64,000 nt of DNA from Candidatus Bathyarchaeota archaeon. GTDB lineage: Archaea > Thermoproteota > Bathyarchaeia > 40CM-2-53-6. The notes under the pieces are model-generated. The model was not told the origin of the DNA. It saw only the letters and a program-made list of their open reading frames with translations, and did no database searches. The translations under genes and the position numbers were made by a program. The stretch lies in contig VBBS01000027.1 of the NCBI GenBank assembly GCA_005888745.1, forward strand, positions 55,045-119,044, written 5' to 3'. Shown piece by piece: positions 38,237-50,208 of this stretch (positions are counted from its first letter, which is position 1; every line of letters starts with the position of its first letter).

Positions 38237-38503
38237 CTACCACATAGATCGCCTGGGAGATTCACTTCCGTGCTTCCGGTACGAGTCAAGCATCGCCCTA
38301 AGTGTTCCTGCCTTGCCAACATCACTGAATCCGATCCTATCACAGAATCGGAGCAAGTTGTCCCTGCCAAGGATGGCTAACTTCCAACTTGTAATCGTGC
38401 TCCTTCGAACGCCAGCCTTGGTGTCCAAGTACAACTTGGAGTCGATGCCCATTTCGGTGAGCATCCCGCCGATGTTTTCTAGGAGCATACTATTTGTGTC
38501 CAT
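38237..38503 (-). pseudogene. C-terminal remnant of an HTH-LAGLIDADG homing-endonuclease-like gene (third copy of the family in this window)
   Basis: MLTEMGIDSKLYLDTKAG...NLLRFCDRIGFSDVGKAGTL aligns with the C-terminal halves of ORFs 41264..41956 and 49282..50208 (LRECLGLKATLVYKGK...VKRFSRVVGFELARK); lacks the LAGLIDADG motifs themselves. Confidence 0.45.
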
Positions 38504-38539: not shown

Positions 38540-40552
38540 CTAGCTCCCAGCTATGGCCGCCAACCCCGTGAGCAATGCCCCCCGGAGTCGGCTAGATAAG
38601 CCTTGTCCGAAATCAGGCCTAGAAGCATACGCGGGCGGTGCTTCAACCGGATGGTAATATTGCGACGCTGGCTCGCGCCTTCGCCTTGATACTAGAGCTA
38701 TCAGAACTACGAGGAACAAGAGGGCTAACCCCGCAATGAGGTAGATGAAGGGAATCCCCACGACCTTCAGATTAGTCAGGTTTGGAATCCCATTTATCGT
38801 AACGGTCAAAGTGTTTTGCCCTGAGGCGAACCCGGGCTTCGAGGCCTGAACGGTGACAGTTGGGTTCGAGGCCTGGAGAGGCGTAGTGTAGACGGCCGTG
38901 TAGTTACCGTTACCGCCATCAGTTGGGCTTGAGAAGCTTCCACCAGCCGAGGATGAGAGAAAGATCGTGGCCCCTGTTACGGGGCTGGTTCCGTTTGTGA
39001 CTCGAATCATCAGGACAATCTCACCTCCCGGAGTGATCGAAGCAACGCTAGGAACGGCAGCTACGGTCAAAGGCGGAAACGGATTCAGAGTGATCGTCGT
39101 CAGAGCAGATCCACTTATGAAACCATTTTCACTCGCAATTACCTGAATTATCGAGCTGACAAGAGAGTTCACAAGCGGTGCTGTGAAATTGGACGAATAT
39201 ACACCGATGCTGCCCATGATAGGTTGAGTGAACCCGCCGCCAGCCGATGAGCTAAGAGCAAGAGTCACACCGGCCTGAGGAGTCGACCCATTCGTAACCG
39301 TGATGGTCAGAATCGAAACCTGTCCAGGCTTCAAGCTCGTCACGCTTGGAAATATCGTCGCCTGCAACCTAGGTGCGATTACGCCCAACGCGTAGACCTT
39401 CGTATCCCATGACCCGAAGAAGGCCCTAGAATCCGCGATGGCAGGGGACGAAGATATGCCGGCACCAGTCGTGTACTTCCAGAGCAAAGCCCCCCCAGTC
39501 GCGTTCAGCGCGTAAATGCTGTGGTCACTCGAGCCGAACAGTAGAGTATTCGAGCCGAGCGCCAGGGCTGGAGAAGATGAAATTCCCCCGATCGTACCTG
39601 CTTTGGGATACGTCCAGAGCTGGGCACCGGTCGTGGCGTTGAGCGCGTATAGAATGCCTCTGCCTGTTCCAAAATAAACTGCTCCATTGCTGACCGCTGC
39701 AGAAGTAGCGTTGAATGCTCCGATGTTGAACGTCCAGATAATGGCACCAGAAGTCTGGTTCATCGCGAGAAACCTATTGCTGTCAGCTCCAACGTACACC
39801 CTACCGTAAGCAAGAGCTGGAGCCGTGCTTATCGACGCCGCCACTCCAATAGGAACCTTCCATAGCTGAACACCCGTGGTCTCGTTAACCGCAACAACAT
39901 AGCCATTGTTTTGTCCGAAGACAACTCGACCATTATTGACCGAGGGAGATGACTTGATCGTGTCATCTCCAACATACTGCCAGGCGACCGTGTTGTTTGT
40001 ATAGACTGCCAAGAGAACTGAGTTGAACCTGACAAACCAGGTTCCGTAGAAGATCTTCCCACCAGCATAGACTGGCGAGGATGTGATCGGACTGATGTTC
40101 GCCCTCTGCCAGATCACCGATCCTGTCTGCTCATTGAGAGCATAGACCATCGAGTTTCTTGAGGCGAGATAGACTACGCCGTTCGCGACTGCAGGTGTCG
40201 CGTAGATCGGAGCTGAAGTGCTGAAGACCCACCTCTGAGCCCCGTTGTACTCGTCGAGCGCGTAGAGGTTTCCATCCCAAGATGGGATCAAAACCAGCCC
40301 GTCAACAACGACGGGGGAGGGATACACGTAGGATCCAGTTGTGAAAGTCCACATGAGGTTTGGCCCACTGGGCGAGGATGCTGGAGTAGTTCCGGTTCTC
40401 AGAGCGTCGTGATGGAACATCGTCCAGGGATAATCTGTAGGACCCGGAGAAGCGGCGGGAAAATGTTGCGGAGTCGCTGGTGTTTTGCTAGCGGGTATTC
40501 CTATGCTGAGAAGGAAGAGGGAAAGGATCAGAATAACAACTGCCCATCTCAA
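38540..40552 (-). CDS. cell-surface PQQ-like beta-propeller repeat protein with C-terminal TM anchor
   Basis: Signal peptide, eight-fold PQQ/BamB-like repeats (LYALDxxTGxxxW), Ig-like Thr-rich domains, C-terminal hydrophobic helix + RRRRE. Confidence 0.75.
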   Translation of the reverse strand: MRWAVVILILSLFLLSIGIPASKTPATPQHFPAASPGPTDYPWTMFHHDALRTGTTPASSPSGPNLMWTFTTGSYVYPSPVVVDGLVLIPSWDGNLYALDEYNGAQRWVFSTSAPIYATPAVANGVVYLASRNSMVYALNEQTGSVIWQRANISPITSSPVYAGGKIFYGTWFVRFNSVLLAVYTNNTVAWQYVGDDTIKSSPSVNNGRVVFGQNNGYVVAVNETTGVQLWKVPIGVAASISTAPALAYGRVYVGADSNRFLAMNQTSGAIIWTFNIGAFNATSAAVSNGAVYFGTGRGILYALNATTGAQLWTYPKAGTIGGISSSPALALGSNTLLFGSSDHSIYALNATGGALLWKYTTGAGISSSPAIADSRAFFGSWDTKVYALGVIAPRLQATIFPSVTSLKPGQVSILTITVTNGSTPQAGVTLALSSSAGGGFTQPIMGSIGVYSSNFTAPLVNSLVSSIIQVIASENGFISGSALTTITLNPFPPLTVAAVPSVASITPGGEIVLMIRVTNGTSPVTGATIFLSSSAGGSFSSPTDGGNGNYTAVYTTPLQASNPTVTVQASKPGFASGQNTLTVTINGIPNLTNLKVVGIPFIYLIAGLALLFLVVLIALVSRRRREPASQYYHPVEAPPAYASRPDFGQGLSSRLRGALLTGLAAIAGS

Positions 40553-40741
40553 TGGAATCCCCTAGCTGAACCCGAACACCTTGCTCCAAGAGAGATTTGG
40601 AGAATCCACAACTAAAGAGACATGTAACTCACGCTTCCACAATCGCGGATGCGACAATCGGAGCAAAGCCGAAAACTAGATTAATCTAGACACGGCACAA
40701 CGCCCGAACAAGGTGCAACCTGTCTGATATTCGCCTTCTTA

Positions 40742-41002
40742 ATCTTCTACCGGGTTAGACCGCTGTCTGAGGCAGATAAGAAGAAAGCCACAGCCGACTG
40801 GGCACGGTTCAAGAAAACACTGTCCAAAGAACTCGCGATAGTAGCGGAGTACGCGCACATCTGGGGAACAACCTACAACGGCATGATCCTCGTCGAGTCA
40901 CGTGACCTCTCCACATTCCACGACTTCTGGCACCGTTTCCGCGAAACTACAAGATGGTACGTGCCAGAGACAAGAACATACATCGCCCAGAAAGAAGAAT
41001 AG
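40742..41002 (+). CDS. unannotated small ORF, DUF3303-like, without a canonical start codon
   Basis: Frame translates as IFYRVRPLSEADKKKATADWARFKKTL...GMILVESRDLSTFHDFWHRF...; begins immediately after a TAA stop with ATC; absent from the track because no ATG/GTG/TTG opens it. Confidence 0.3.
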   Translation: MFYRVRPLSEADKKKATADWARFKKTLSKELAIVAEYAHIWGTTYNGMILVESRDLSTFHDFWHRFRETTRWYVPETRTYIAQKEE

Positions 41003-41263
41003 GCCAGAACTATCCCGAGTATTTCGACTAGGCTCTATACCAAGAATTTCCGACACCCGCATCTCAGTGGGGCACTCAACTCTCCGTCGGATTAGGAGAG
41101 ATTGTGCCACTGTTCCGGAAGGATTCTTAGCTTCGGCACCTTTCTCTCTGTCTTTTGACTGGAAACGCGCTCACTTGCCAGGGGTCTGGCCAGTGAAAAC
41201 GGTCAATAGGAAAATTCGCCCCCTAAGCGACCTTCTAAGCCCGTAGCCCTAGGATGTTACGAA

Positions 41264-41956
41264 TTGCTCACCGAGTCGCAGTCAGAGATGCTTGGGATAC
41301 TGTTCGGAGATGGGTCGATGTCTGAGAATCACAACTCCGTTCAGATCGTCATAACCGGTCACAAATTCGATGACGTAGAGTACCTAATTGGCCGCGTAGG
41401 TCCGATGTTCGCGGAACTCTTTGAAATGCCCCTCAAGGTACATCTAGTGAAAGATGAAAATACGATGATCCTCTACGCTTACTCCAAACGAATTGCCCTG
41501 ACCCTTCACGAATGGGGAATGCCTTTTGGCCGAAAAAAACTGGCCTGGCTCACACCGCACGTCGCATTGGATGAAGTATCTTTCGTCAGAGGCTTATTCG
41601 ACACAGATGGCTGTGTCTATCGCAAGTATGGCCCTTATTTGCAAATCCAGTTTAAGTTCGCTTCCCTTTCGCTCCTTGAGTACGCGAGGGAGTGTCTGGT
41701 AAGACTCGGCCTGAATCCCACATCGATCAGGTGCGACGATACGAAGTTCAGGTTCTATCTCAGCAGACAAGCCGAGGTAGACCATTTCTTTAGGGTCGTA
41801 GAACCCAAGAACCCAAAGCATCTTAATCGTTTCCAAAATGCTTCTCGGAATCGGTCCTACCGCCCATACACACATCGTCCTGAAGCACTCAGAAGAATTG
41901 GAAACCAACCAAGCCTTATAGGACCAATTCTGTGGAAAACACACTCGGTGGGGTAA
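41264..41956 (+). CDS. LAGLIDADG-family homing endonuclease-like protein
   Basis: Two dodecapeptide motifs, LGILFGDGSM and VRGLFDTDGCV, ~100 aa apart; TTG start; ends 27 nt before the tRNA-like locus. Confidence 0.7.
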   Translation: MLTESQSEMLGILFGDGSMSENHNSVQIVITGHKFDDVEYLIGRVGPMFAELFEMPLKVHLVKDENTMILYAYSKRIALTLHEWGMPFGRKKLAWLTPHVALDEVSFVRGLFDTDGCVYRKYGPYLQIQFKFASLSLLEYARECLVRLGLNPTSIRCDDTKFRFYLSRQAEVDHFFRVVEPKNPKHLNRFQNASRNRSYRPYTHRPEALRRIGNQPSLIGPILWKTHSVG

Positions 41957-41983
41957 CTAAGGAAACCTTTCGACATAGGGCTT

Positions 41984-42164
41984 GGGGCCGTAGTCTAGCC
42001 AGACCCACTCCGGGTCCTAGTAAGGGACGACGACGGGCTCCAGAATCTATGAAACATGCACACCGACCAATATCGAGGGATGAGGAAATTCGGGAGCGCG
42101 TGAAGATACCCGTAGACGAGGGACTCGGCGGATGTCGTGGGTTCAAATCCCACCGGCCCCACCA
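41984..42164 (+). tRNA. putative intron-containing tRNA (Pro-like acceptor stem); fold of the internal part unresolved
   Basis: 5' GGGGCCG-TA-GTCT-AGCC... and 3' GTGGG-TTCAAAT-CCCAC-CGGCCCC-A-CCA give a perfect 7-bp acceptor stem, canonical T-arm, discriminator A and encoded CCA; the span is ~178 nt, so ~100 nt of intron(s) is implied; coordinates +/-2. Confidence 0.45.
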
Positions 42165-42619
42165 GTGTAGGGCAAATCGTCAGGGACTGGAAAGATCAGG
42201 ATCTCCTCAGCACAGACTTTGGGTCTAACCATGGCTCTTCAATCCGCCTTCGAGTCTGTTGAGGAATGAATCAATGTACTGCCGTGCGATCCCCCAATCA
42301 AAACGGCTGAGAGAGTCCGATCCGGCCCCGTGAGGACGCGTGTCGCATTGTCATCGATTCTAAGCTAGGTTCACGTAGAATGTCTCGGTCCACGTAAGCG
42401 AGTCCATGATGATTTTCAACTCAATACTGCCCGTTGTCTTGTCTGCTTTTGTGGCGTTCCATCTAGCATTCTGAACCACGAGCAGGAGTGCGTCCCAAAC
42501 CTTCTCAAAGGCGTGGGCAAATCTACCTTCTTTTCTAAAGGCAACTTCTCACATTGGGCCTGCAACCTGGCAATAAACTCACACCCCATCGTCTCCTCAA
42601 TGCTCGGGGCAAATTGAAC

Positions 42620-49281: not shown

Positions 49282-50208
49282 TTGCAGGTGGACATTCAAG
49301 AGTTGACCCCCATTCAAAGCTTCGGCAGAAGAATTCGAGCCTATGATAAAGCCACACGCCTCGCAAAGGAAGGTCGCCCTGTCACTGAAATCTCGAAAGA
49401 GACGGGAACGCCTGACGCTACCATCAGGGGATGGCTCGTAAACGGTCGAAAACCTTGGACCCGCTGCGAACTCTTCAAACCAACGTACTCTGATCAATTA
49501 ACATATGTTATCGGTGTTTACATGGGAGACGGCTCGATTTCCCGATGGAGAAATCGTTTTTTACTGCGATTAGATGTCAAAGACAAAGAATTCGCCGATA
49601 AGTTTTCTTCAACATGCGCACATGTTCTGGGTAGGAAACCATATTCTGTGAGGCATGTCAGGGATAGGGACACATACGAGACTATCATTTCAAACGCGTC
49701 TTTCTGCAAGTTCCTCAACCGAGGCCTCACCCACCTGGATCGGTATGTACGGGAGCATCCCTCTGGCTTTGTTAGAGGTTTAGCTGATAGCGATGAGTGC
49801 CCCACTGTGACAACAACAAAAAAGCGGGGCAAACCCTGGTTCTTCGTCCAAGTTGTAGTAGCAACATCCAAGAGCATACGCTTACTGAGCTATACTCGGA
49901 CGATCCTGAGGGAATGCCTCGGACTCAAAGCGACGCTAGTGTACAAAGGCAAGCCAAGACCCAGTGTGTTCAAGAACAAGTTGCTCCGTTCAAGAAAGAG
50001 GGTCTTTGACCTTAGGATATCGCGCTTTGGTGACGTGAAACGATTCTCCCGGGTTGTTGGTTTCGAATTGGCTCGGAAACAAGAGAAGCTTGCCGCTGCT
50101 ATCTTCGTCCGTGAAGGATTTGGTTCTGGTCAGGATGCGGTGAAAGAGTGGACCCGTCGCTGGGAGCATGGCACCACTGAGTGGATTCTCAAGAAAGGAG
50201 TGGACTAG
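49282..50208 (+). CDS. HTH + LAGLIDADG homing endonuclease-like protein
   Basis: N-terminal HTH-like region (ISKETGTPDATIRGWL), then motifs IGVYMGDGSI and VRGLADSDEC; lies between thiolase and its DUF35 partner and overlaps the DUF35 start. Confidence 0.65.
   Translation: MQVDIQELTPIQSFGRRIRAYDKATRLAKEGRPVTEISKETGTPDATIRGWLVNGRKPWTRCELFKPTYSDQLTYVIGVYMGDGSISRWRNRFLLRLDVKDKEFADKFSSTCAHVLGRKPYSVRHVRDRDTYETIISNASFCKFLNRGLTHLDRYVREHPSGFVRGLADSDECPTVTTTKKRGKPWFFVQVVVATSKSIRLLSYTRTILRECLGLKATLVYKGKPRPSVFKNKLLRSRKRVFDLRISRFGDVKRFSRVVGFELARKQEKLAAAIFVREGFGSGQDAVKEWTRRWEHGTTEWILKKGVD

What the first reader, a model, noticed from the sequence alone, without database searches (positions are those of the whole stretch)
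41957..42170. tRNA-like locus with ~100 nt of intervening sequence, immediately after a homing-endonuclease gene
A perfect 7-bp acceptor pairing (GGGGCCG ... CGGCCCC), canonical T-arm GTGGGTTCAAATCCCAC, discriminator A and an encoded CCA bracket ~178 nt. The acceptor stem matches archaeal tRNA-Pro. I could not fold a canonical D-arm or anticodon arm from the intervening sequence, so it must contain one or more introns, possibly at non-canonical positions as in Thermoproteales/Thaumarchaeota-type split genes, or it may be a disrupted tRNA. The 5' end lies inside the last 30 nt of the LAGLIDADG ORF region, leaving no room for a normal promoter, which hints at co-transcription or a rearranged locus.
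Basis: seen in the sequence. Interest (0 to 1): 0.55.

Follow-up and report, generated by a model that had tools for sequence, protein, structure and literature searches.

The report
Three-intron archaeal tRNA-Trp beside homing-endonuclease gene
The locus is a real but hidden archaeal tryptophan tRNA gene split by three short protein-spliced introns, an already known kind of gene; the endonuclease gene next to it belongs to a family found beside, or in one relative inside, tRNA-Trp genes in many archaea.

Summary
Window 41984-42164 (+) is a tRNA gene with a genomically encoded CCA. It is tRNA-Trp(CCA), not tRNA-Pro.

It has three introns:
- 22 nt in the D-loop (17/17a), 42001-42022
- 64 nt at the canonical 37/38 site, 42044-42107
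- 18 nt in the variable loop (45/46), 42116-42133

Introns 1 and 3 have a perfect 4-bp helix flanked by 3-nt bulges. Intron 2 has a relaxed version of the same motif. Removing all three gives a canonical 77-nt cloverleaf.

Related soil Bathyarchaeia and metagenome contigs carry the same exons with intron 1 and/or intron 3 exactly absent. That fixes the splice junctions.

This is a new member of a known kind, the multi-intron archaeal tRNA genes described in Thermoproteales.

The claim that there is no room for a promoter is not supported. A TATA-like box plus leader module is conserved upstream in all orthologues.

The LAGLIDADG gene is a ~0.9-kb insertion missing from sister lineages. Its homologues lie within about 100 nt of, or overlap, a tRNA gene in all contexts examined, and that gene is mostly tRNA-Trp. 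In one lineage the ORF lies inside a 620-nt intron of tRNA-Trp. That link is the potentially new part.

The parts
41984..42000 (+). Exon 1 of tRNA-Trp: acceptor 5' strand, U8 A9, D-stem 5' strand and the first part of the D-loop (GGGGCCGTAGTCTAGCC, nt 1-17).
   Evidence: The exon is identical in orthologues.
42001..42022 (+). Intron 1, 22 nt, in the D-loop between nt 17 and 17a (AGACCCACTCCGGGTCCTAGTA). Its BHB has a central helix CUAG/CUAG (4/4 pairs), 3-nt bulges CC|A and UA|A, and an intron-side helix GACCC/GGGUC (5 bp).
   Evidence: BHB scan. The intron is exactly absent in L057, L069, L196 and L129, where the D-loop reads AGCCAGGGA or AGCCAGGTA without interruption.
42023..42043 (+). Exon 2: rest of the D-loop, D-stem 3' strand, nt 26, anticodon-stem 5' strand and the anticodon loop up to G37 (AGGGACGACGACGGGCTCCAG). 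The anticodon CCA is at 42039-42041.
42044..42107 (+). Intron 2, 64 nt, at the canonical 37/38 position. Its BHB is relaxed: central helix 3/4 pairs with a C34.A mismatch, exon-side helix of 5 bp (the anticodon stem), intron-side helix of 2 bp. It carries box C'-like GGGAUGA, box D'-like CCGA, GUGA, and a 3' antisense stretch AUUCGGGAGCGCGU that pairs with A27-G37.
   Evidence: ARAGORN with the intron option; MFE pairing; BHB score; comparison of 83 related introns. The median length of tRNA-Trp introns is 65 nt and they nest a box C/D sRNA (PMC4090602).
42108..42115 (+). Exon 3: A38, anticodon-stem 3' strand, A44 and G45 (ACCCGTAG).
42116..42133 (+). Intron 3, 18 nt, in the variable loop between nt 45 and 46 (ACGAGGGACTCGGCGGAT). 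Its BHB has a central helix CCGU/GCGG (4/4 pairs, one G.U), bulges AG|A and AU|G, and an intron hairpin CGAG-GGA-CUCG.
   Evidence: BHB scan. The intron is exactly absent in 10 related gene variants, where the sequence reads ACCCGTAG|GTC. The fourth hairpin pair changes from G-C to A-U in L171 and L202 and to G.U in L244.
42134..42164 (+). Exon 4: G46-C48, T-arm, acceptor 3' strand, discriminator A73 and the encoded CCA (GTCGTGGGTTCAAATCCCACCGGCCCCACCA).
41915..41956 (+). Promoter and leader module, copy B: CTTATA (41915-41920), 27 nt, then GGTGGGG (41947-41953). It overlaps the last codons and the stop codon of the LAGLIDADG ORF. The GGTGGGG(C) element looks like a relic of the tRNA 5' end (ggt + GGGGC).
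   Evidence: The module is conserved upstream of tRNA-Trp in all soil-clade orthologues, with or without the LAGLIDADG gene. Its promoter function is inferred, not shown.
41264..41956 (+). LAGLIDADG homing-endonuclease gene, 230 aa, with motifs LGILFGDGS and RGLFDTDGC. It is free-standing and lies directly upstream of the tRNA on the same strand.
   Evidence: Pfam LAGLIDADG_3, E = 6e-9. There are 87 homologous clusters, named 'LAGLIDADG family homing endonuclease [Ca. Bathyarchaeia]' by NCBI. It is present in some orthologous loci and absent from others.
41077..41960 (+). Segment of about 0.9 kb that is inserted relative to LAGLIDADG-less sister loci. It contains the LAGLIDADG ORF and promoter copy B.
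   Evidence: In L134 and L233, window 40312-41076 aligns with -796..-24 of the tRNA. The junctions were read. The boundaries are approximate.
41034..41076 (+). Promoter and leader module, copy A, at the ancestral position: TCTATA (41034-41039), 27 nt, then GTGGGGCACT (41067-41076). It now lies upstream of the LAGLIDADG ORF.
   Evidence: Alignment with L134, L233 and L057.

Best explanation
Window 41984-42164 (+) encodes the tRNA-Trp(CCA) of a soil Bathyarchaeia archaeon. [quoted passage not shown]

How it most likely works (all steps inferred from established knowledge of archaeal tRNA processing):
- Transcription starts about 25 nt downstream of the conserved TATA-like box at 41915-41920. This gives a pre-tRNA of roughly 220 nt with a leader of about 35-40 nt.
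- RNase P removes the leader.
- The splicing endonuclease EndA cuts in the 3-nt bulges of three BHB motifs. It would have to be a broad-specificity type, because introns 1 and 3 have only the central helix plus the intron-side helix.
- RtcB-type ligase joins the four exons into a 77-nt tRNA whose CCA is already encoded.
- To form the BHB of intron 1 or intron 3, part of the D-arm or of the anticodon stem must pair with the intron instead of with its mature partner.

Intron 2 is the usual tRNA-Trp intron. Its conserved 3' half is antisense to the anticodon arm, as in the box C/D guide that directs 2'-O-methylation of C34. The second guide, for nt 39, is intact in relatives but has decayed in this lineage.

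Shown here: the sequence anatomy, the cloverleaf after in-silico splicing, and exact intron presence/absence among orthologues.

The LAGLIDADG gene upstream is a lineage-specific insertion of a homing-endonuclease gene family that is tied to tRNA-Trp genes.
For: Anatomy:
- ARAGORN with the intron option finds the anticodon arm and the 64-nt canonical intron.
- My BHB scan finds two further introns with 4/4 central-helix pairs and 3-nt bulges at 42001-42022 and 42116-42133.
- Removing all three gives a 77-nt sequence that ARAGORN calls tRNA-Trp(CCA) with full 7/4/5/5 stems. It has A14, G18 G19, A21, U33, G37, the variable loop AGGUC and the T-loop UUCAAAU.

Intron presence and absence in relatives:
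- L070 has the same three introns, with a different loop in intron 1.
- L057 and L069 lack intron 1 exactly and have a 46-nt BHB intron at 25/26 instead.
- Among 88 distinct related tRNA-Trp genes, 10 variants have only the canonical intron, and their exons equal my predicted splice product apart from a few substitutions (L196: nt 22 plus two T-stem pairs).
- Exons are almost invariant, while intron loops, leaders and flanks diverge.

Intron 2:
- Its length of 64 nt matches the 65-nt median of tRNA-Trp introns that nest a C/D sRNA (PMC4090602).
- In relatives the guide upstream of box D' pairs 7-8/8 so that the fifth nt upstream of the box (N+5) pairs with C39.

Taxon and source:
- The closest named genomes are soil 'Crenarchaeota archaeon 13_1_40CM_3_52_10' and Bathyarchaeota MAGs.
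- The window is 99.9% identical to an ENA metagenome scaffold.

Multi-intron tRNAs with up to three introns are documented in Thermoproteales (PMC4033280).
Against: - There is no expression or splicing data.
- BHB-like motifs on their own are common by chance: about 2 per shuffled sequence at my strongest threshold.
- The BHB helices of intron 1 are conserved in sequence and show no compensatory double changes. Covariation therefore adds nothing, and the case rests on the restored cloverleaf and on intron-less alleles.
- The central helix of intron 2 has a C.A mismatch.
- The D-stem has a U13.C22 mismatch.
- The EndA type of this genome was not examined.
- Whether a second tRNA-Trp gene exists elsewhere in the genome cannot be checked from a 64-kb window.
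Confidence: 0.9

Rival explanations
1. The locus is a disrupted, non-functional tRNA pseudogene, and the inserted pieces are decay or insertion scars rather than spliced introns.
For: Default tRNA finders and Rfam at gathering thresholds do not detect it. The D-stem has a U.C mismatch. A mobile endonuclease gene lies next to it.
Against: Every insert is flanked by a BHB in the correct register. Excision restores a canonical cloverleaf. The exons are nearly invariant across more than 80 related sequences, while intron loops and flanks diverge and introns come and go exactly at the junctions. It is the only tRNA-like gene in the window.
Confidence: 0.04
2. It is a tRNA-Pro gene, as the first reader suggested from the acceptor stem.
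For: tRNA-Pro(GGG) genes of related Bathyarchaeia have the identical acceptor 5' strand and an identical 31-nt 3' end (L015, L116 and others).
Against: The only anticodon arm that can be assembled is ACGGG CUCCAGA CCCGU, with anticodon CCA. The related tRNA-Pro genes have a different D-arm (GTCGTCTAGCTTGG...) and the anticodon loop CTGGGGC.
Confidence: 0.01
3. The LAGLIDADG gene lies next to the tRNA by coincidence or by vertical inheritance only. It has no functional or mobility relation to tRNA-Trp, and the tRNA is simply co-transcribed with it.
For: - Within the soil clade the arrangement looks vertically inherited: the synteny DUF1512 - PQQ protein - small ORF - LAGLIDADG - tRNA-Trp is kept.
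- Several copies are frameshifted (L069, L070, L190, L217).
- There is no strong T-run terminator between the ORF and the tRNA.
Against: Homologues down to 27-41% identity, in unrelated gene neighbourhoods, also sit within about 100 nt of, or overlap, a tRNA gene. That tRNA is tRNA-Trp in at least 7 verified contexts.
- In L258/L259 the ORF lies inside a 620-nt BHB intron of tRNA-Trp, and a sister allele (L132) lacks that intron.
- In L262 the ORF is followed by a second, 5'-truncated tRNA-Trp copy.
- In L060 a LAGLIDADG ORF is flanked by a tRNA-Trp and a duplicate of its 3' end.

The tRNA also keeps its own conserved TATA and leader module.
Confidence: 0.15

Closest known systems
Multi-intron tRNA genes of Thermoproteales, also reported in Korarchaeum and ARMAN (Sugahara et al. 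2007/2008; review PMC4033280)
   Same: - Several short introns lie at non-canonical positions in addition to 37/38.
- Each is flanked by a strict or relaxed BHB motif.
- The maximum reported is three introns, the number found here.
- Standard tRNA finders miss such genes.
- Introns turn over rapidly between close relatives.
   Different: - The host is a mesophilic soil Bathyarchaeia lineage, not a Thermoproteales member.
- In the full-text searches I ran I found no description of multi-intron tRNAs in Bathyarchaeota.
- The intron positions here are 17/17a and 45/46.
- One relative (L154) appears to have four introns.
tRNA-Trp intron with a nested box C/D sRNA that guides Cm34 and Um39 (Haloferax volcanii and other Euryarchaeota; Clouet d'Orval 2001, cited in PMC4090602 and PMC7714728)
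   Same: - It is the same tRNA and the same 37/38 position, with a typical length (64 nt against a 65-nt median).
- A C'-like box GGGAUGA and a D'-like box CCGA are present.
- The 3' half of the intron is antisense to C32-G37 of the anticodon loop.
- In relatives a second guide pairs so that N+5 falls on nt 39.
   Different: - No recognisable box C is present.
- The box D candidate GUGA lies one nucleotide out of register for C34.
- The guide for nt 39 has decayed in the window's lineage, pairing at only 4 of 8 positions.
- No Rfam C/D family matches significantly.
Archaeal rRNA introns that carry LAGLIDADG homing-endonuclease ORFs (I-DmoI, I-PorI and I-ApeI types), and free-standing homing-endonuclease genes placed next to their target (for example phage 'collaborative homing')
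   Same: - The protein is a two-motif LAGLIDADG protein.
- Its gene is present in some close relatives and absent from others.
- In L258 the homologous ORF sits inside a BHB-flanked intron of a stable-RNA gene, as in the rRNA introns.
- Partial duplications of the target gene flank the ORF in L262 and L060.
   Different: - The host gene is a tRNA. Reviews give archaeal tRNA intron lengths of 11-129 nt (PMC4090602).
- In the window the ORF is not in an intron. It sits between two promoter copies upstream of the tRNA.
- No endonuclease activity or target site is known.
tmRNA (Rfam RF00023)
   Same: The two ends form a tRNA-like acceptor and T-arm with about 100 extra nucleotides between them, which is why the tmRNA model aligns to the ends.
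   Different: The score is below the family threshold (36.8 against 47 bits). ARAGORN finds no tmRNA. The context is archaeal, and the interior resolves fully into tRNA exons plus BHB introns.

Membership tests
tRNA (tRNA-Trp, archaeal type) | Cloverleaf with a 7-bp acceptor stem, D-arm, anticodon arm and T-arm. Conserved nucleotides A14, G18 G19, A21, U33, purine 37 and the T-loop UUCRANY. Anticodon CCA. | tested here: met
   After removal of the three introns, ARAGORN calls tRNA-Trp(CCA), 77 nt including CCA. One D-stem pair is a mismatch (U13.C22; U.U in relatives).
tRNA (tRNA-Trp, archaeal type) | Detection of the genomic (unspliced) sequence by the Rfam tRNA covariance model or by default ARAGORN. 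| tested here: not met
   Searches find nothing. This is expected for a gene with non-canonical introns and does not argue against membership.
tRNA (tRNA-Trp, archaeal type) | A mature aminoacylatable RNA is produced. | not testable with these tools
   No transcriptome is available for this organism. Only exon conservation across more than 80 relatives speaks for function.
Archaeal BHB (bulge-helix-bulge) spliced intron | Two 3-nt bulges on opposite strands separated by a 4-bp helix, with a splice site after the second bulge nucleotide on each strand. | tested here: met
   Intron 1 has 4/4 pairs. Intron 3 has 4/4 pairs including one G.U. Intron 2 has 3/4 pairs with a C34.A mismatch, which is a relaxed form.
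Archaeal BHB (bulge-helix-bulge) spliced intron | Flanking helices h (exon side) and h' (intron side) of at least 2 bp, which defines the strict hBHBh' form. | tested here: inconclusive
   Intron 1: h' 5 bp, h 1 bp. Intron 2: h 5 bp, h' 2 bp. Intron 3: h' 4 bp, h 0 bp. Introns 1 and 3 are therefore the relaxed HBh' form, which requires a broad-specificity EndA.
Archaeal BHB (bulge-helix-bulge) spliced intron | Homologous genes exist that lack the intron exactly at the predicted junctions. | tested here: met
   Intron 1 is absent in L057, L069, L196 and L129. Intron 3 is absent in 10 variants, for example L196 and L129. Intron 2 could not be tested, because the search pattern required it.
Archaeal BHB (bulge-helix-bulge) spliced intron | Covariation that maintains the BHB helices. 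| tested here: inconclusive
   For intron 1, 98% of cells are paired but no pair shows changes on both sides. For intron 3, the fourth hairpin pair occurs as G-C, A-U and G.U but is unpaired in three variants.
Archaeal BHB (bulge-helix-bulge) spliced intron | The genome encodes a broad-specificity splicing endonuclease, (alpha-beta)2 or epsilon2 type. | not tested
   EndA was not looked for. It is not expected within this 64-kb window.
Box C/D sRNA nested in the tRNA-Trp intron | Boxes C (RUGAUGA) and D (CUGA) plus internal boxes C' and D'. | tested here: inconclusive
   C'-like GGGAUGA and D'-like CCGA are present. GUGA is a possible box D. No box C was found (sequence reading). No significant Rfam C/D hit.
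Box C/D sRNA nested in the tRNA-Trp intron | Guides complementary to the tRNA such that the fifth nucleotide upstream of box D or D' pairs with C34 or nt 39. | tested here: inconclusive
   In the window, the pairing with G31-C35 is present but lies one nucleotide out of register relative to GUGA. The guide for nt 39 pairs at only 4 of 8 positions. In 54 of 83 related introns the nt-39 guide pairs at 7-8 of 8 positions in the correct register.
LAGLIDADG homing endonuclease | Two LAGLIDADG motifs with conserved acidic residues, and a Pfam match above the curated cut-off. | tested here: met
   PF14528, 36.4 bits against a cut-off of 22.5. The motifs are LGILFGDGS and RGLFDTDGC.
LAGLIDADG homing endonuclease | Encoded within an intron or intein, or free-standing next to a target, with presence/absence polymorphism between relatives. 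| tested here: met
   In the window the gene is free-standing. It is present in 13 orthologous loci and absent from 9 or more. It is intron-borne in L258/L259.
LAGLIDADG homing endonuclease | Site-specific DNA cleavage of the allele that lacks the gene. | not testable with these tools
   This requires a biochemical assay.
tmRNA | Rfam gathering score reached, a tag reading frame and pseudoknots, and a bacterial host. | tested here: not met
   36.8 bits against 47. ARAGORN in tmRNA mode finds nothing. The gene context is archaeal.

The most novel reading that the evidence does not exclude
The LAGLIDADG gene beside this tRNA belongs to a family of homing endonucleases that specialise on archaeal tRNA-Trp genes. 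The family can reside inside a BHB intron of the tRNA, as in the 620-nt intron at 25/26 in L258/L259. Some short non-canonical tRNA introns would then be ORF-less relics of such elements. An example is the 46-nt intron at 25/26 in L057 and L069, whose ends ACUGAG...CUCAGCAUUAU resemble the ends of the long intron, ACUGGG...CCCAGCAUAAA. If so, DNA-level homing would be one route by which archaeal tRNA genes gain non-canonical introns. The upstream cassette in the window, flanked by two promoter copies and a relic of the tRNA 5' end, would be a rearranged derivative of such an element.
Probability: 0.35. Interest if true: 0.75.

Novelty: new member of a known kind. Interest (0 to 1): 0.45.

Why it matters
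The tRNA call has a practical use. Standard annotation misses this gene, so tRNA-Trp, and apparently tRNA-Pro as well, would be scored as missing in soil Bathyarchaeia genomes. Completeness and codon-usage inferences for these genomes therefore need intron-aware tRNA finders.

The comparative set also shows introns being gained and lost at 3/4, 17/17a, 25/26, 43/44 and 45/46 within a single tRNA over short evolutionary distances. This extends the intron-rich tRNA pattern beyond Thermoproteales.

The larger point, if it holds up, is the repeated physical link between one LAGLIDADG family and tRNA-Trp genes, including one copy inside a tRNA intron. How archaeal tRNA introns spread is an open question, and no mechanism is established. 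A homing-endonuclease-bearing tRNA intron would make that question testable.

Tried and rejected
- Default ARAGORN and Rfam at gathering thresholds found nothing in the whole window. A permissive Rfam scan gave only a sub-threshold tmRNA hit on the two ends plus noise. I rejected tmRNA.
- The MFE fold of the whole precursor is not more stable than shuffles (z = -1.19). It is dominated by a long-range helix between intron 1 and intron 3 (CCGGGUCC/GGACUCGG). I rejected this helix as functional, because intron 3 is unchanged in orthologues that lack intron 1.
- I tested whether BHB motifs alone are significant. They are not: shuffles give about 2 strong candidates per sequence.
- I tested covariation in the intron-1 BHB and found none.
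- I tested whether the conserved upstream GGTGGGGC is a 5' exon followed by a BHB intron, which would make the leader a fourth intron. No consistent BHB exists in any register in 11 orthologues. By hand, none exists for promoter copy A either.
- I looked for a duplicated tRNA fragment upstream of the LAGLIDADG ORF using repeat finding. Only 12-nt matches at chance level turned up.
- The conserved block at window 40725-41002 first looked like a possible ncRNA, with no Rfam hit. The alignment shows third-codon-position variation, so it is a small protein-coding gene that ends at about 41002.
- I could not assign clean box C and box D to intron 2.
- The paper of Clouet d'Orval et al. 2001 is not held in the library.
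- My automatic solver failed on L251 and gave ambiguous calls on L247. Calling those two tRNA-Trp rests on reading the sequence by eye.
Full report
**1. Observation**

- GGGGCCG at 41984-41990 pairs perfectly with CGGCCCC at 42154-42160.
- The T-arm GTGGG-TTCAAAT-CCCAC is at 42137-42153.
- A73 is at 42161 and the encoded CCA at 42162-42164.
- The span from 41984 to 42161 is 178 nt.

Standard tools do not see a gene here. ARAGORN in default mode finds no tRNA in the whole 64-kb window. Rfam at gathering thresholds gives no hit. In a permissive scan only the tmRNA model aligns to the two tRNA-like ends, at 36.8 bits against a threshold of 47.

The LAGLIDADG ORF is 41264-41956. The tRNA therefore starts 28 nt after the stop codon, not inside the ORF.

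**2. Anatomy**

ARAGORN run with its intron option recognises the anticodon arm ACGGG-CUCCAGA-CCCGU, with anticodon CCA, and a 64-nt intron after G37. It pairs this arm with a wrong, internal acceptor stem.

I then scanned every possible deletion for the archaeal bulge-helix-bulge geometry: a 4-bp helix flanked on opposite strands by 3-nt bulges, with cleavage after the second bulge nucleotide. Two candidates stood out, and they are exactly the two deletions that restore a cloverleaf:
- **Intron 1**, 42001-42022, 22 nt. Central helix CUAG/CUAG, intron-side helix GACCC/GGGUC.
- **Intron 3**, 42116-42133, 18 nt. Central helix CCGU/GCGG, intron hairpin CGAG-GGA-CUCG.

The canonical intron, **intron 2** (42044-42107), forms a relaxed motif. 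Three of its four central pairs form, there is a C34.A mismatch, and the anticodon stem serves as the outer helix.

Joining the four exons gives:

GGGGCCG UA GUCU AGCCAGGGA CGAC G ACGGG CUCCAGA CCCGU AGGUC GUGGG UUCAAAU CCCAC CGGCCCC A CCA

ARAGORN calls this tRNA-Trp(CCA) with a normal cloverleaf. In standard numbering the introns lie at 17/17a, 37/38 and 45/46.

**3. Is it more than chance?**

BHB-like motifs alone are not rare. Shuffled copies of the gene give about two candidates at my strongest threshold. The argument therefore rests on comparison with relatives.

A scan of one genome per species with the 3'-exon pattern returned many archaeal loci:
- L070 (soil MAG 'Crenarchaeota archaeon 13_1_40CM_3_52_10') has the same three introns. 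Its intron-1 loop differs.
- L057 and L069 (soil Bathyarchaeota MAGs) have an uninterrupted D-loop, GTCTAGCCAGGGA. Intron 1 is absent exactly at my junction. They carry a different 46-nt BHB intron at 25/26.

A metagenome scan with the anticodon-arm exons gave 88 distinct tRNA-Trp genes:
- Ten variants have only the canonical intron. Their exons read GGGGCCGTAGTCTAGCCAGGGATGACG ... ACCCGTAG|GTC. That is my predicted product with a few substitutions (in L196: nt 22 and two T-stem pairs).
- Exons are nearly invariant, while intron loops, leaders and flanks vary.

Covariation adds little. The intron-1 BHB is 98% paired but shows no change on both sides of any pair. In intron 3 the fourth hairpin pair occurs as G-C, A-U and G.U, but it is unpaired in three variants.

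The closest sequences and the protein names place the window in soil Bathyarchaeia.

**4. Intron 2**

Its length (64 nt) and host tRNA match the well-known tRNA-Trp intron. That intron has a median length of 65 nt and nests a box C/D sRNA guiding 2'-O-methylation of C34 and U39 (PMC4090602 and PMC7714728).

In the window:
- The conserved 3' half, GAGGGAUGAGGAAAUUCGGGAGCGCGUGAAGAU, contains a C'-like box.
- It also contains an antisense stretch that pairs with A27-G37 plus the first three intron nucleotides.

In relatives, 54 of 83 distinct introns have 8 nt upstream of a D'-like box that pair 7-8/8 with the 3' junction, so that the fifth nucleotide upstream of the box pairs with C39.

The window's sub-clade has lost that complementarity (4 of 8). 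I could not find a box C, and the candidate box D (GUGA) is one nucleotide out of register for C34. I therefore describe intron 2 as a partly decayed relative of the C/D-guide intron. I do not call it an established guide RNA.

**5. Promoter and the LAGLIDADG gene**

An alignment of upstream regions shows a module consisting of a TATA-like hexamer, 27 nt, and GGTGGGG(C). It lies about 30-35 nt before the tRNA in every soil-clade orthologue. In the window this is 41915-41920 and 41947-41953, overlapping the last codons of the ORF. There is therefore room for a promoter. Its activity is inferred, not shown.

The LAGLIDADG gene is an indel:
- 13 orthologous loci have it directly upstream of tRNA-Trp. 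Four of these copies are frameshifted.
- At least nine loci with the same synteny lack it.
- In L134 and L233, window 40312-41076 aligns with -796..-24 of the tRNA. About 0.9 kb (roughly 41077-41960) is therefore inserted in the window.
- A second, ancestral copy of the promoter module lies at 41034-41076, now upstream of the ORF.
- The GGTGGGGC element resembles the 'ggt + GGGGC' start of the tRNA gene in sediment relatives. It is probably a relic of a tRNA 5' end.
- I tested whether it is a 5' exon followed by a BHB intron and found no support.

**6. The endonuclease family and tRNA-Trp**

The protein has 87 homologous clusters. I looked at the gene context of homologues ranging from 62% down to 27% identity, and at L060, which came from the first scan.

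| Locus | Homologue, identity to the window protein | Arrangement |
|---|---|---|
| L257 | P0038, 62% | As in the window |
| L260/L261 | P0074, 41% | Unrelated gene neighbours; the ORF abuts a tRNA-Trp |
| L264/L265 | P0046, 52% | ORF, then about 70 nt, then a tRNA-Trp with another acceptor stem |
| L262/L263 | P0049, 56% | Complete tRNA-Trp, then the ORF, then a 5'-truncated second tRNA-Trp copy with a different intron-2 sequence |
| L266 | P0078, 31% | Convergent tRNA-Trp on the opposite strand |
| L251 | P0077, 33% | Trp-like gene on the opposite strand, read by eye only |
| L247 | P0079, 34% | Trp-like gene on the opposite strand, read by eye only |
| L254 | P0084, 27% | tRNA-Gly-like gene with a T-loop intron |
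| L060 | LAGLIDADG-like ORF, 25% | ORF flanked by a tRNA-Trp and a duplicate of its 3' end |

The most informative case is L258/L259 (P0054, 53% identical), which comes from two independent assemblies with identical sequence:
- The 210-aa ORF lies inside a 620-nt intron at 25/26 of tRNA-Trp.
- The intron has a perfect BHB: central helix UAUG/CAUA and intron-side helix CUGGGAUG/CAUCCCAG.
- The ORF's stop codon falls in the canonical intron.
- The spliced product is a canonical tRNA-Trp whose exons and promoter match the intron-less allele L132.

Reviews give archaeal tRNA intron lengths of 11-129 nt (PMC4090602). My literature searches found no tRNA BHB intron with an endonuclease ORF, but absence from those searches does not prove novelty.

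**7. Comparison with what is known, and verdict**

The finding itself is a multi-intron archaeal tRNA gene. It carries three introns, which is the maximum reported for Thermoproteales (PMC4033280). It is a new member of a known kind in a lineage where I found no earlier description.

The adjacency to the LAGLIDADG gene is not a coincidence. It reflects a family-level association with tRNA-Trp genes. That association, together with the intron-borne copy in a relative, is what deserves follow-up.

For the window locus alone the result is ordinary. The score is raised moderately for the association.

Noticed in passing
L258 1469-2260 (identical in L259); intron-less allele in L132: This tRNA-Trp gene has a 620-nt BHB intron at 25/26 that contains a complete 210-aa LAGLIDADG ORF, 53% identical to the window's protein. 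The ORF starts within the intron-side helix and stops in the canonical intron. The spliced product is a canonical tRNA-Trp. A sister allele with the same promoter and exons lacks the intron. I know of no described archaeal tRNA intron that carries a homing-endonuclease gene.
   Followed up: partly
L257, L260/L261, L262/L263, L264/L265, L266, L251, L247, L254, L060: Homologues of the window's LAGLIDADG protein (62% down to 25% identity) lie within about 100 nt of, or overlap, a tRNA gene in every context examined, and the gene neighbourhoods are unrelated to one another. The tRNA is tRNA-Trp in at least 7 verified cases and tRNA-Gly-like in one. In L262 and L060 the ORF is flanked by partial duplicates of tRNA-Trp.
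   Followed up: partly
L154 (Ga0315314_1008080), tRNA-Trp gene: This gene appears to have four introns: 3/4 (30 nt), 17/17a (29 nt), 37/38 (60 nt) and 43/44 (28 nt). Three of the four have good BHB motifs; the 37/38 intron was not scored. The spliced product is a clean ARAGORN tRNA-Trp. The review I consulted gives three introns as the maximum.
   Followed up: partly
window 41034-41076 and 41915-41956: There are two copies of the module TATA-like box, 27 nt, (G)GTGGGG(C). They bracket the LAGLIDADG cassette, whereas sister loci without the cassette have one copy. GGTGGGGC is the reverse complement of the tRNA 3' end GCCCCACC and also resembles the tRNA 5' end with its -3..-1 'ggt'. Whether it acts at the RNA level, by pairing leader to 3' end, or is only a relic is unknown.
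   Followed up: partly
L015, L016, L042, L052, L074, L096, L102, L110, L115, L116, L123: tRNA-Pro(GGG) genes of related Bathyarchaeia are 140-181 nt long from the acceptor 5' end to the discriminator, so they hold several inserts. Their 3' ends are identical or nearly identical to the 31-nt 3' end of tRNA-Trp. Intron-rich tRNA genes seem to be general in this lineage. That would explain why ARAGORN finds no tRNA in the 64-kb window.
   Followed up: no
window 42044-42107 and related introns: The canonical tRNA-Trp intron of sediment relatives has a D' guide (ACGGGUUUG + CUGA/CGGA) that pairs so that N+5 falls on C39. It also has a C' box followed by a guide to C32-G37, but no recognisable box C. 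In the window's sub-clade the guide for nt 39 has decayed.
   Followed up: partly
window 38237-38503 (-) and 49282-50208 (+): The same window holds two more LAGLIDADG_3 ORFs. One is an 88-aa fragment next to the DUF1512 gene. The other is a 308-aa free-standing ORF wedged between a thiolase gene and a DUF35 (zf-ChsH2/OB) gene. Neither lies next to a tRNA, and neither is detectably similar to the tRNA-associated one in tblastn.
   Followed up: no
window about 40700-41002 (+): A small conserved protein-coding gene (...EYAHIWGTTYNGMILVESRDLSTFHDFWHRFRETTRWYVPETRTYIAQKEE*) lies between the PQQ-repeat protein gene and the tRNA promoter. It was not in the ORF list at 60 aa or longer. It is conserved at about 77% nucleotide identity, with variation at third codon positions, across all syntenic loci. 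Its function is unknown.
   Followed up: partly
L002 and L003 (contig ends correspond to window 42009): Two independent MEGAHIT assemblies of the same population both break at window position 42009, inside intron 1. This suggests strain-level variation just upstream, in intron 1, exon 1 or the LAGLIDADG region.
   Followed up: no
sediment relatives, for example L231, L182, L137: A second, unrelated intron family of 26-35 nt occupies the variable region at 43/44 (CCCGU|AGGAGC...GGGUAG|AGGUC), two nucleotides from the 45/46 site used in the window. A hot spot for D-loop introns at 17/17a uses the exon sequence CUAG as one strand of the central BHB helix.
   Followed up: partly
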